IMG/VR virus record: IMGVR_UViG_2698536372_000005
Source: a virus
Taxonomy: Duplodnaviria; Heunggongvirae; Uroviricota; Caudoviricetes
Length of the DNA stretch: 5,698 nt
Reading direction: 5' to 3' (one strand)
This document shows, in pieces, positions 3,001 to 5,698 of the stretch (position 1 is its first letter; each line of letters begins with the position of its first letter). The position numbers were made by a program.

Positions 3001-5698
3001 GCACACCGTTCACGCTGACGCAGTCACCGGTCAGTGCATTTGCGGCGGATAAACTGCATGTGACAGACATTACCAGGAATGCGACTTACCCGGTACTGAT
3101 AGACAGCATTGCGGTGGAAGTGAACAGCACAGACACTGCGGCATGATAAAAAAAACCGCCAGCGACAGGAATGGACGCTGGCGGTGGTGATACCTATGGA
3201 GAAAAAATAAAGGAACGATACTTTCGTACTCTGGTTTTTAATGAAAACAGTTCTTATTGTCAACAATAACGGAAAGAAATTATGACATTTCTGAACCAGT
3301 TAATGCTGTACTTCTGTACGGTGGTCTGTGTGCTGTATCTCCTTTCGGGTGGGTACAGGGCAGTGCGCGATTGCTGGCGCAGGCAGATTGACAAAAGGGC
3401 CGCTGAGAAAATCAGCGCCGGTCAGTCAGCCGGAAGCAAACCCGAAGAGCCGCTCATTTAGCGGCAACTTTCTTAATCACACCTTTCGACGAGAAAATCC
3501 CATGTCAGAAATTACATCCCTGGTCACTGCTGAAGCAGTGAAGGAAGTCCTGCGCTCTGAAGAAGTCCGGAGCGCACTGAAACAGAAACTTCGCCATAAC
3601 CTGGAAGCGCGTCTTGATGCAGAAGTGGATGCCATTCTGGATGAACTGCTGGGCGCACCGGCAGCTCCGGAGCCGGAAGGCATCGCGGGTGAGGGGAGTG
3701 CTTCAGATAGCGGTGACCCCACACCGGACAGCGACATGATGATGTAAGCATGCGTCAGGGACCATCGGTGTGTGCCGGTGGTCTTTTTTATTGTTGTGAG
3801 CTTCCGGATTGCGGGAGGCGGGGTATGAACCAGATGGAAAAAATCACAACAGGTGTGTCATACACCACGTCAGCGGTGGGAACGGGCTACTGGTTCCTGC
3901 AGTTGCTGGACAGGGTTTCCCCGTCTCAGTGGGCGGCAATAGGCGTGCTGGGGAGTCTGCTGTTTGGTCTGCTGACGTACCTGACGAACCTGTATTTCAA
4001 AATCAGAGAGGACAGGCGTAAGGCGGCACGGGGAGAGTAAGCTGATGAGCAGGAAACTCCGCTATGGTTTATCGGCTGCCGTTCTGGCGCTGATTGCCGC
4101 AGGTGCTTCTGCGCCTGAAATCCTCGACCAGTTTCTGGATGAAAAGGAAGGCAACCACACCACGGCATACCGTGATGGTGCGGGTATCTGGACCATCTGC
4201 CGAGGCGCCATCATGGTGGATGGTAAGCCTGTGATTCCTGGCATGAAGCTGTCGAAGGAAAAATGCGACCGGGTTAACGCTATCGAACGGGATAAGGCGC
4301 TGGCATGGGTGGAGCGTAATATAAAAGTTCCACTGACCGAGCCACAAAAAGCAGGTATCGCGTCATTTTGCCCCTATAACATTGGCCCCGGTAAGTGTTT
4401 CCCGTCGACGTTTTATAAGCGGCTTAATGCAGGCGATCGCAGGGGAGCGTGTGAGGCGATTCGCTGGTGGATTAAGGACGGTGGCAGAGACTGCCGTATC
4501 CGTTCAAACAACTGTTACGGTCAGGTATCAAGACGTGACCAGGAGAGTGCGCTGGCATGCTGGGGTATCGACAGGTAAGCAGAATATTTTGCTGAAAAAT
4601 GACGTTGGCCAACGCGGGTGGACAACACGAAATCCTGCGAACTGGCAAAATGTAAGTGAATAAAGTCAACAAGATTGTTTCATGAAGAGGCACCGTAATG
4701 GTGCCTTTGTCATTTCTGCGCTTCGCACAAGCGTAAATAAACCAAAGAACCTTTCAGGATGAGCCCTGGTGGATAACCGGCAGTGGTCTGGTTAACCCTC
4801 TTTGGGCTGGTTATTCCTGTGCGCAGGGTTCATCACTAAAAGGAAATAACCGATGAATATGATGACCGTGCCGTTTCACGGCGATTCTCTTTATGTGGTT
4901 AACCATAACGGCGAACCATACGTTCCCATGAAACCTGTCGTTGCGGGGATGGGGCTGGCCTGGCAATCACAGTTGGCTAAGTTAAGACAGCGTTTTGCGT
5001 CAACTATAACGGAAATCGTTATGGTTGCTGAGGATGGGAAACGACGCAATATGGTGTCCCTGCCGCTTCGAAAACTTGCAGGCTGGTTACAAACCATCAA
5101 TCCCAACAAAGTAAAACCCGAAATCCGCGGCAAGGTAATCCAGTATCAGGAAGAGTGTGACGATGTTCTCTATGAATACTGGACGAAGGGTTTTGTCGTT
5201 AATCCCCGTCGAATGAGTGTGATGGAAGAACTCAATCAGGCTTGCGCTGACATGAAACGGGATAAAAACATTGCCAGTGTGTTTGCTACCGGGCTGAATG
5301 AGTGGAAACAGGTTAAATCCGCGCATGTATCAAAAATCCGCACATTGATAAACGAAGCGAATCTGCTGATTGATTTTGTCCTGGCTGATACAGACAAAGG
5401 GAAAATAACAAAGGCGGATTGATGGAGTGGTGGCTAATGATATCGGATAAACTCATAACGCTGGCGAAGATCCTCTGTGTAATCGTCGGCATTTCATTTT
5501 TAGTCATTCTGGTTGCCATTTTCTTTTCCACCGCTTGGCGAGTCCTGACGTTATCGGGACTGGTGGGGTGAAAGAGAGATGAACCGTGTTCTGTGTGTGG
5601 TGATTATTGTCCTGCTGGTAGCCTGTGGTGCACTGAGGTGTACTGGCAATAGCGGACACTACCATTTGTTCTTTTTTTAAGCAGCCATCTGATGATAT

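What the first reader, a model, noticed from the sequence alone, without database searches (positions are those of the whole stretch)
3502..3747. Uncharacterised 81-aa acidic protein between the esterase and the lysis cassette
The predicted protein has a charged, probably helical N-terminal half and a strongly acidic, low-complexity Pro/Gly/Ser/Asp C-terminal tail ending in MMM. Small acidic phage proteins in cargo positions of late operons are sometimes DNA mimics or host-factor inhibitors. Function here is unknown and this is only a hypothesis. The gene is set off from the holin by a strong hairpin terminator (3760-3790).
Basis: inference. Interest (0 to 1): 0.45.

Follow-up and report, generated by a model that had tools for sequence, protein, structure and literature searches.

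The report
Known DUF826 small acidic phage protein
The 81-residue acidic ORF is a real, conserved gene of the already catalogued but functionally unknown DUF826 family of Shiga-toxin and related E. coli prophages; it always follows a tiny membrane-protein gene and travels with the phage sialate esterase rather than with the lysis genes.

Summary
Window 3502-3747 (+) encodes an 81-aa protein (pI 4.2, net charge about -11). AlphaFold predicts helices at residues 10-17 and 20-49 and a disordered acidic Pro/Gly/Ser/Asp tail ending in MMM. A 13-bp hairpin with a T-run follows at 3757-3789.

It is not a new protein. It matches Pfam DUF826 (E 3e-40), and the identical sequence occurs on at least 1000 public contigs. 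It is found in 1004 of 5426 complete E. coli genomes. The reading frame is under purifying selection (dN/dS 0.08-0.37) and intact in 87 of 88 complete loci.

New context:
- DUF826 always lies 19-40 nt after DUF1378 (window 3282-3461), a 59-aa single-pass membrane protein.
- The pair always lies downstream of a NanS-p-type esterase or its remnant.
- The same trio sits in Mu-like prophages between gin and com/mom, with no holin nearby.
- Esterase and S holin also occur adjacent without the pair.

So this is a two-gene cargo cassette linked to the esterase, closed by a terminator, and not part of the lysis cassette.

The tail varies in length, but 77 of 90 cluster representatives keep a hydrophobic Met/Leu C-terminal tip. 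That suggests a tethered docking motif.

Function remains unknown, and nothing supports DNA mimicry. Interest is modest.

The parts
3502..3747 (+). DUF826 gene, 81 aa plus stop. Codons 1-51 (3502-3654) form the conserved two-helix core. Codons 52-81 (3655-3744) form the disordered acidic Pro/Gly/Ser/Asp tail ending in MMM.
   Evidence: ORF. Pfam PF05696 E 3.1e-40. PHROG 311/8301. AF2 helices 10-17 and 20-49, tail pLDDT below 50. dN/dS 0.08-0.37. Exact protein on at least 1000 contigs.
3491..3494 (+). Weak Shine-Dalgarno-like GAGA, 7 nt before the ATG. Diverged homologues carry stronger GGAG/GGGAGG/AGGAG at the same place.
   Evidence: Read from the sequence. Upstream regions of 13 loci compared.
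3282..3461 (+). DUF1378 gene, 59 aa. Hydrophobic N-terminal segment (residues 1-24, GRAVY 1.55), then a basic hydrophilic C-terminal part (residues 25-59, pI 9.6). It is the constant upstream partner of DUF826, with a 40-nt gap here.
   Evidence: Pfam PF07125 E 7.7e-38. Composition. Found 200-222 nt upstream of the DUF826 start in every locus that holds the region. Gaps of 19-40 nt. Pairing also seen starting from the DUF1378 side.
3757..3789 (+). Intrinsic-terminator-like hairpin (13-bp stem, 4-nt loop) with a T-run, 10 nt after the DUF826 stop. It closes the cassette before the holin gene.
   Evidence: Terminator scan. MFE -19.8 kcal/mol, z -3.3. Hairpins of different sequence occupy the same position in diverged lambdoid and Mu-like loci.
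158..3146 (+). NanS-p-type sialate O-acetylesterase gene (DUF1737 + SASA + C-terminal jelly-roll domain). In this window it is disrupted by assembly duplications and N runs. It is the constant upstream neighbour of the DUF1378-DUF826 pair.
   Evidence: ORFs. Match to Stx1 phage phi-O153 yjhS and to annotated SASA esterases. Self-duplications 747-1075/1077-1405 and 1325-2040/2046-2761, with N at 1076 and 2041-2045.
3825..4040 (+). S21-type class II holin (pinholin) with a dual start (M1, M4). It is the first gene of the lysis cassette and is not part of the DUF826 cassette.
   Evidence: Pfam Phage_holin_2_1 E 9e-33. PHROG holin.

Best explanation
Shown: the ORF is a genuine protein-coding gene of the DUF826 family. 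It is the second gene of a two-gene cassette, DUF1378 then DUF826. The cassette sits downstream of the NanS-p-type esterase gene in temperate Escherichia/Shigella phages and ends at an intrinsic-terminator-like hairpin just before the holin gene. In lambdoid phages it lies in the Q-dependent late operon. It is a dispensable cargo cassette genetically coupled to the esterase, not a component of the lysis cassette.

Inferred mechanism: DUF826 is a soluble cytoplasmic adaptor. Its conserved amphipathic helices (hydrophobic residues spaced i, i+4 from L26 to L50) mediate protein-protein binding. The likely partners are the basic cytoplasmic segment of the membrane-anchored DUF1378, another copy of itself, or both. 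Its long, flexible, acidic Pro/Glu-rich tail acts as a spacer. The tail presents a conserved hydrophobic Met/Leu C-terminal tip as a short docking motif for a third protein.

From the synteny, the most likely third partner or process is the esterase, for example holding, localising or timing it before it is mounted on capsids. A host protein that recognises non-polar C-termini is the main alternative.
For: Coding and conservation:
- Pfam DUF826 E 3e-40.
- The identical protein is on at least 1000 contigs.
- It is present in 1004 of 5426 complete E. coli genomes, always annotated DUF826.
- dN/dS is 0.08-0.37.
- 87 of 88 complete loci have an intact ORF of 79-101 aa, so the length changes are in frame.
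- SD-like motifs sit at a conserved distance from the start.

Pairing: DUF1378 lies 19-40 nt upstream in every locus holding the region. It is followed by DUF826 in all 10 places found from the DUF1378 side.

Esterase linkage:
- An esterase or its remnant is upstream in all lambdoid loci examined.
- The same trio, with DUF826 only about 40% identical, lies in Mu-like prophages between gin and com/mom with no holin nearby. That variant is indexed in 910 blocks of the collection.
- In one Mu-like variant the esterase stop is only 35 nt before DUF1378, which leaves no room for separate signals.

Not lysis:
- Esterase is followed directly by S21 holin, without the pair, in Escherichia sp. and in EPEC E2348/69 PP2.
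- A terminator separates DUF826 from S.

Architecture:
- AF2 helices and a disordered tail.
- The tail is 22-60 aa long, about 22% D/E and 18% P, with almost no K/R. 77 of 90 cluster representatives end in TML, MMM, TMM, TLL, MML or a close variant (alignments).
- DUF1378 has a hydrophobic N-terminal segment and a basic C-terminal part.

Background: the NanS-p homologue gp84 is a capsid-decorating protein in phi24B (bioRxiv 10.64898/2026.04.10.717836).
Against: - No direct evidence for any interaction.
- The esterase exists and presumably works without the pair.
- Tail-less DUF826 cores occur alone in other phages, with neither esterase nor DUF1378. The core domain therefore cannot depend strictly on either.
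- In some cryptic prophages the esterase is fragmented while DUF826 stays intact.
- The linkage to the esterase could be historical (co-transfer of adjacent DNA) rather than functional.
- No ORF at the DUF826 position appears in the held part of the phi24B virion proteome, so it is probably not a structural partner in the virion.
- The sample of loci is dominated by closely related E. coli prophages.
Confidence: 0.4

Rival explanations
1. Host-factor inhibitor or decoy. The conserved helical core binds a host protein. The disordered acidic tail with a non-polar C-terminus mimics either a nucleic acid, an acidic partner tail (SSB-C-terminus-like), or a substrate tail for an AAA+ protease such as FtsH or ClpXP, which it would occupy or titrate. 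The esterase would be irrelevant.
For: Strongly acidic (pI 4.2). The tail is disordered and at least 22 aa long, with a conserved non-polar tip. The core domain also occurs alone in phages lacking both esterase and DUF1378. DUF826 stays intact where the esterase has decayed. The family is restricted to Escherichia/Shigella phages, as expected for a host-specific function. That non-polar C-termini and long unstructured tails are recognised by FtsH and ClpXP is general knowledge, not tested here.
Against: No similarity to any known DNA mimic, anti-restriction or anti-defence protein: PDB sequence search empty, Foldseek PDB empty, BFVD nothing significant, PADLOC nothing. The charge is concentrated in a floppy tail, not on a rigid surface. 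This model does not explain the invariable pairing with DUF1378 or the co-transfer with the esterase into Mu-like phages.
Confidence: 0.2
2. Lysis-timing regulator. DUF1378 (a small membrane protein with a charged cytoplasmic end, holin-like in outline) and DUF826 (a small cytoplasmic helical protein) would modulate the pinholin/SAR-endolysin pathway, for example by binding the basic C-terminus of S.
For: In every lambdoid locus the pair lies immediately upstream of an S21-type holin in the same late operon. The acidic protein and the basic holin C-terminus ([13 protein letters not shown]) are complementary in charge.
Against: The pair is maintained under purifying selection in Mu-like prophages far from any S21 holin. 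S21 holin and lysozyme cassettes occur without the pair. A terminator lies between DUF826 and S. No match to any holin or antiholin family in Pfam or PHROGs.
Confidence: 0.15
3. The protein is of little consequence and the locus is kept for its RNA or DNA features (terminator, 3' end processing, sRNA production), or it simply hitch-hikes with the esterase.
For: The esterase-holin spacer is a known home of Hfq-dependent sRNAs. PasA and PasC lie there in EPEC (PMC8550237 table S6; bioRxiv 10.64898/2026.05.13.724894). An Esr41-like element lies at window 3148-3224 on the minus strand.
Against: No Rfam match inside 3502-3747. Substitutions are concentrated at synonymous sites. Tail-length changes stay in frame and keep the C-terminal tip. 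PasA is on the opposite strand and has no homologue in the window.
Confidence: 0.07

Closest known systems
Pfam DUF826 (PF05696) / PHROG 311, 'DUF826 domain-containing protein' of Stx and other lambdoid E. coli prophages (e.g. phi24B vb_24B_24, Sakai ECs1211, the 3' part of 933W ST933Wp43)
   Same: Full-length HMM match (1-75 of 75). 100% identical to the commonest E. coli allele. Same position between DUF1378 and holin S.
   Different: Nothing: it is a member. Older annotations over-extend the ORF upstream to 139-148 aa. The conserved start is the ATG at 3502.
Phage 'moron' cassettes (accessory genes inserted between conserved phage genes and closed by a terminator)
   Same: Presence/absence polymorphism between the esterase and S. 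A terminator follows directly. The cassette also moved into a different phage type.
   Different: No promoter-like site was found in 3000-4900. In this window it looks like a passenger of the late transcript, not an autonomous unit.
Proteins built as an oligomerising or partner-binding domain plus a flexible acidic linker plus a hydrophobic C-terminal tip (E. coli SSB C-terminus, T7 gp2.5, ribosomal stalk P1/P2). Resemblance recalled from general knowledge.
   Same: Overall architecture: a small structured N-terminal part, a Pro- and acid-rich disordered linker of variable length, and a conserved non-polar C-terminus.
   Different: No sequence or fold similarity was detected. The tip is Met/Leu (MMM, TML, MML), not IPF or GFGLFD. 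No OB fold. This is an analogy, not membership.
DNA-mimic / anti-restriction proteins (Ocr, ArdA and similar)
   Same: Small, very acidic, phage-encoded.
   Different: No match by sequence or structure. The acidity sits largely in a disordered tail. It is expressed from the late operon rather than early.

Membership tests
Pfam DUF826 (PF05696) | Score above the curated gathering threshold over the whole model | tested here: met
   136.6 bits against a cut-off of 25, E 3.1e-40, model positions 1-75 of 75. All 15 diverse members of alignment A3 also match.
Pfam DUF826 (PF05696) | Small (about 60-110 aa) protein of enterobacterial prophages | tested here: met
   81 aa. The homologues returned by the searches are named almost exclusively as Escherichia or Shigella. 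Only 55 representatives at 50% identity among 1.84 billion proteins.
Phage moron cassette | Present in some and absent from other otherwise collinear phage genomes | tested here: met
   Esterase is followed directly by S in Escherichia sp. L103 and in E2348/69 PP2. Esterase-DUF1378-DUF826-S is the order elsewhere.
Phage moron cassette | Own terminator downstream | tested here: met
   Hairpin with T-run at 3757-3789. Analogous hairpins in 6 of 7 diverged loci.
Phage moron cassette | Own promoter upstream | tested here: not met
   No sigma-70-like site in 3000-4900. In one Mu-like variant only 35 nt separate the esterase stop from DUF1378. The consensus scan is crude, so weak or non-sigma-70 promoters are not excluded.
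Holin / antiholin lysis regulators | Co-occurrence with, and dependence on, a cognate holin | tested here: not met
   The pair is maintained in Mu-like prophages without an adjacent holin. S21 holin occurs without the pair.
Holin / antiholin lysis regulators | Sequence membership of a known holin or antiholin family | tested here: not met
   Only DUF826 and PHROG families of unknown function match.
DNA-mimic / anti-defence proteins | Sequence or fold similarity to a known mimic or anti-defence protein | tested here: not met
   PDB phmmer: 0 hits at E up to 10. Foldseek PDB: 0 hits. BFVD: best E 3.9. PADLOC: 0.
DNA-mimic / anti-defence proteins | Binding to a DNA-binding host enzyme | not testable with these tools
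   Needs pull-down or activity assays.
Intrinsic (Rho-independent) terminator (for 3757-3789) | G+C-rich stem-loop followed directly by a U-tract | tested here: met
   13 pairs, 6 G-C, loop 4, six T in a row at 3784-3789. dG -19.8 kcal/mol, z -3.3. Termination activity itself was not tested.

The most novel reading that the evidence does not exclude
DUF1378 and DUF826 are dedicated helpers of the capsid-decorating NanS-p esterase. The proposal is a membrane-anchored protein plus an acidic tethered-motif protein. Together they would hold, inhibit or time the esterase in the cytoplasm, with the acidic Pro/Ser/Thr-rich tail and hydrophobic tip acting as a pseudo-ligand for its lectin-like or catalytic domain, until the enzyme is mounted on capsids or released. 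This would be a previously unrecognised three-gene 'decoration enzyme' module that moves between lambdoid and Mu-like phages.
Probability: 0.15. Interest if true: 0.55.

Novelty: already known. Interest (0 to 1): 0.3.

Why it matters
DUF826 and DUF1378 are among the most widespread uncharacterised genes of Shiga-toxin phages. About a fifth of complete E. coli genomes carry DUF826, often in several copies. The genes lie in the transcript that also carries stx, the esterase and the lysis genes.

Placing them with the esterase rather than the lysis cassette, and identifying a conserved C-terminal docking-type motif, turns 'hypothetical protein' into a few cheap, testable hypotheses. It does not reveal a new kind of system. 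As a scan finding it is ordinary: a correct reading of a known family of unknown function.

Tried and rejected
- Annotation libraries: NCBIfam gave no match for DUF826 or DUF1378. PADLOC gave none.
- Weak Pfam hits (NNH5, ATP-synt_Eps) are inconsistent across family members and far below their thresholds. Rejected.
- Structure: PDB sequence search, Foldseek against PDB and against BFVD gave nothing usable. A two-helix-plus-tail model is in any case too simple for fold searching.
- Apparent fusion proteins are not Rosetta-stone evidence. The DUF1378+DUF826 and DUF826+holin entries (P0060, P0167, P0169, P0098) are frameshifted or chimeric calls in one- or two-member clusters. PHROG 8301 (139 positions) corresponds to the over-extended ORF from GTG 3328.
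- The 24B_1 microRNA-size sRNA of phi24B was predicted to bind upstream of vb_24B_23 (= DUF1378) and S (PMC4426718). I found no site with up to 6 mismatches. The best duplex energy in 3100-4100 (-13.7 kcal/mol) is weaker than the mean best energy of shuffles (-15.5).
- I asked whether the sRNA PasA/PasC is the 3' end of the DUF826 mRNA. It is not. PasA lies on the opposite strand in a spacer that lacks the pair, and it has no homologue in the window.
- Fels-1 holds only a 29-codon remnant of a tail-less DUF826 between Rz and the terminase gene.
- The genome-contig scan with the DUF826 alignment failed because no stretch was conserved enough.
- Phi24B virion proteome: no entry for an ORF starting at 25,xxx. 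The stored file is truncated, so this is only weak negative evidence.
- The speculative link to Shiga toxin (a tail resembling the ribosomal stalk peptide bound by StxA1) was rejected. The family is equally present in non-Stx lambdoid and Mu-like prophages, and the tip motif differs.
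Full report
**1. What is in the window**

The window is the late region of a Shiga-toxin-type lambdoid phage. Positions 3150-4100 are 99.8% identical to the partial record of Stx1-converting phage phi-O153. They are 97-99% identical to many Stx1 and Stx2 phages, with 346 phage records matching.

The gene order is as follows:
- NanS-p-type esterase, 158-3146
- DUF1378, 3282-3461
- the ORF in question, 3502-3747
- S21-type holin, 3825-4040
- lysozyme R, 4045-4578
- a P22-Ant-like gene, 4853-5422

The esterase gene as given is disrupted by two assembly duplications and by N runs. This does not affect the region of interest.

**2. Check of the observation**

The ORF, its length (81 aa), its ATG start and its MMM end are as described.
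- The protein has pI 4.2 and a net charge of about -11.
- Residues 52-81 contain 7 D/E, no K/R, 5 P, 4 G and 4 S.
- AlphaFold2 on a 22-sequence alignment predicts helices at 10-17 and 20-49 with pLDDT mostly above 90.
- The model has no confident structure after about residue 52.

It has 13 pairs and a 4-nt loop and is followed by a T-run. It folds at -19.8 kcal/mol, z = -3.3 against shuffles.

**3. It is a real gene, and a known one**

The protein matches Pfam DUF826 over the whole model (E 3.1e-40) and PHROGs 311 and 8301, all of unknown function.
- The identical sequence is recorded on at least 1000 contigs under the name 'DUF826 domain-containing protein'.
- The DNA occurs in 1004 of 5426 complete E. 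coli genomes, with a median of two copies.
- Between diverged copies (39-98% protein identity) the first 51 codons show dN/dS of 0.08-0.37.
- In 87 of 88 related loci holding the whole region the ORF is intact, at 79, 81, 90, 91, 96 or 101 aa. All length changes are therefore in frame.
- Diverged homologues have clear GGAG-type ribosome-binding sites at the same distance from the ATG. The window has only GAGA.

The longer 139-148 aa ORFs annotated in 933W and phi24B are over-extensions into the DUF1378 gene in another frame.

The family is very narrow. An exhaustive HMM search of 1.84 billion representatives gave only 55 hits. The homologues that carry an organism name are almost all Escherichia or Shigella.

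**4. Anatomy of the family**

Residues 1-51 are the conserved core.
- Within the close family R18, S19, R31 and N33-D43 are invariant.
- Across the distant members only M1, T9, V13, K14, K27, V42 and G51 are invariant.

The tail is hypervariable in sequence and length, 22-60 aa. Some members show tandem 'QPEP'-type repeats, for example P0162. The tail stays about 22% acidic and 18% proline and almost free of basic residues.

Among 90 cluster representatives with an acidic tail, 77 end in a hydrophobic tip. The tips are TML (23), MMM (16), TMM (14), TLL (13), MML (7) and a few single variants (IML, TTL, AMM, TIL). Most of the remaining 13 look truncated.

A conserved C-terminal tip at the end of a fast-evolving flexible spacer is the signature of a tethered short linear motif. 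That reading is an inference.

A few distant members (59-60 aa) lack the long tail.

**5. Genomic context, the informative part**

(a) DUF1378 is the constant upstream partner.
- Its start lies 200-222 nt upstream of the DUF826 start in every locus that contains that region.
- The intergenic gap is only 19-40 nt.
- Starting instead from DUF1378 proteins, all ten places examined have DUF826 immediately downstream.
- DUF1378 has a hydrophobic N-terminal segment (residues 1-24, GRAVY 1.55) and a basic hydrophilic remainder (pI 9.6). I read this as a single-pass inner-membrane protein with its C-terminus in the cytoplasm. That reading is inferred from the positive-inside rule.

(b) An esterase of the NanS-p type lies upstream of the pair in all lambdoid loci examined.
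- This holds although the esterase alleles differ widely.
- In some loci only a frameshifted copy or a 3' remnant is left.

(c) A diverged copy of the whole trio lies in Mu-like prophages of E. coli.
- The trio has DUF826 at about 40% identity, DUF1378 at about 55%, and an esterase with a different N-terminal domain.
- It sits between the Gin invertase gene and com/mom at the right end of the prophage. No holin is nearby.
- This DUF826 variant is indexed in 910 blocks of the collection.
- In one Mu-like variant only 35 nt separate the esterase stop from DUF1378.

(d) Conversely, the esterase is followed directly by the S21 holin, without the pair, in two cases.
- One is an Escherichia sp. prophage.
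- The other is prophage PP2 of EPEC E2348/69, where the spacer instead carries the sRNA PasA on the opposite strand.

(e) Tail-less DUF826 cores occur alone in other phages, next to unrelated genes.

(f) A hairpin with terminator character follows the DUF826 stop in six of seven diverged loci. This includes both Mu-like variants, and the hairpin sequences are unrelated.

**6. Interpretation**

The pair DUF1378-DUF826 behaves as a dispensable two-gene cassette, closed by a terminator, that travels with the esterase and not with the lysis genes.
- The S21 holin works without it.
- The pair has been kept under purifying selection where there is no S21 holin.

This weighs against a lysis-timing role, although a general effect on lysis is not excluded.

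The coupling to the esterase is asymmetric. In my sample the pair is never without an esterase or its remnant, but the esterase does occur without the pair. This suggests an accessory role for the esterase. Plain physical linkage cannot be ruled out, and the stand-alone tail-less cores show that the helical domain has a function of its own.

A 2026 preprint shows that the NanS-p homologue gp84 of phi24B is a capsid-decorating protein. It is anchored by its DUF1737 domain and is later processed (10.64898/2026.04.10.717836). The held part of that paper's virion proteome lists no ORF at the DUF826 position. DUF826 is therefore probably not a virion component.

My best mechanistic guess is explicitly inferred. 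DUF826 is a cytoplasmic adaptor that binds DUF1378, itself, or both through its amphipathic helices. It presents its hydrophobic C-terminal tip on a long acidic spacer to a third protein. By synteny the esterase is the first candidate. A host protein that recognises non-polar C-termini is the second.

**7.

A DNA-mimic or host-factor-inhibitor role is not excluded, but no result obtained here supports it.
- No sequence or fold similarity to any solved structure or viral model.
- No match to defence-related models.
- The excess charge is largely in a disordered tail.
- It leaves the pairing with DUF1378 unexplained.

**8. Literature**

The only paper in the searchable library that names DUF826 states that some Stx2a phage genomes encode DUF826 and DUF1378 proteins of unknown function between nanS-p and S (PMC10462455).

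A microarray study lists the Sakai orthologue ECs1211 among genes whose transcript level changes at the exponential-to-stationary transition in uninduced culture (PMC2241611). This is weak evidence of transcription.

The predicted 24B_1 sRNA site upstream of DUF1378 and S (PMC4426718) was not reproduced.

**9. Verdict**

The object is an ordinary, already catalogued member of a family of unknown function, so novelty is 'already known'.

The added value is threefold:
- the obligate DUF1378 partner;
- the esterase-linked cassette shared by lambdoid and Mu-like phages;
- the conserved hydrophobic C-terminal tip.

Together these give concrete experiments. Interest is about 0.3.

Noticed in passing
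window 3148-3224, minus strand (hairpin 3155-3185): Full-length but weak match to the EHEC sRNA family Esr41 (29.5 bits against a gathering score of 102, E 0.014). The strong hairpin just after the esterase stop has A8 before it and no T-run after it on the + strand, so it is a terminator for the minus strand (U8; dG about -23 kcal/mol, z -4.8). In EPEC E2348/69 the equivalent hairpin ends the minor 236-nt form of the sRNA PasA. The window may therefore encode an Esr41/PasA-type antisense sRNA in the esterase-DUF1378 spacer.
   Followed up: partly
window 747-1075 vs 1077-1405; 1325-2040 vs 2046-2761; N at 1076 and 2041-2045: The esterase gene is artificially duplicated and joined through N runs (99.1% and 98.5% identical copies). 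This looks like a scaffold or assembly artefact from several nanS-p paralogues, not biology.
   Followed up: yes
window 3254-3269: Perfect 7+7 palindrome TTATTGT-CA-ACAATAA just upstream of the DUF1378 ribosome-binding site. The core GTCAA...GGTAAG is kept in diverged loci. It could be an operator or simply part of the translation-initiation region.
   Followed up: no
L084 3594-6246; L087-L092 (Mu-like prophages of E. coli): Mu-like prophages carry a NanS-p-type esterase whose N-terminal ~100 residues differ from the capsid-binding DUF1737 domain of the lambdoid versions. It lies between gin and com/mom. The different N-terminus may be an attachment domain adapted to a different virion.
   Followed up: partly
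L129 1315-3352: In one prophage the 5' two-thirds of the esterase gene is replaced by an oppositely oriented SNIPE/T5orf172-domain gene. The jelly-roll remnant, DUF1378, DUF826 and the lysis genes are left intact.
   Followed up: no
window 3825-3836: The holin has the dual-start motif (M1-N-Q-M4) typical of S21-type holin/antiholin pairs, preceded by a strong GGGAGG ribosome-binding site.
   Followed up: no
L003 2778-3037 and equivalent places in L064, L071, L085, L093, L095: The known sRNA STnc100 lies upstream of the esterase gene in all six loci. L093 carries four tandem STnc100 copies. AsxR/AgvB was matched only in 933W (L003), between stx and the esterase gene.
   Followed up: no
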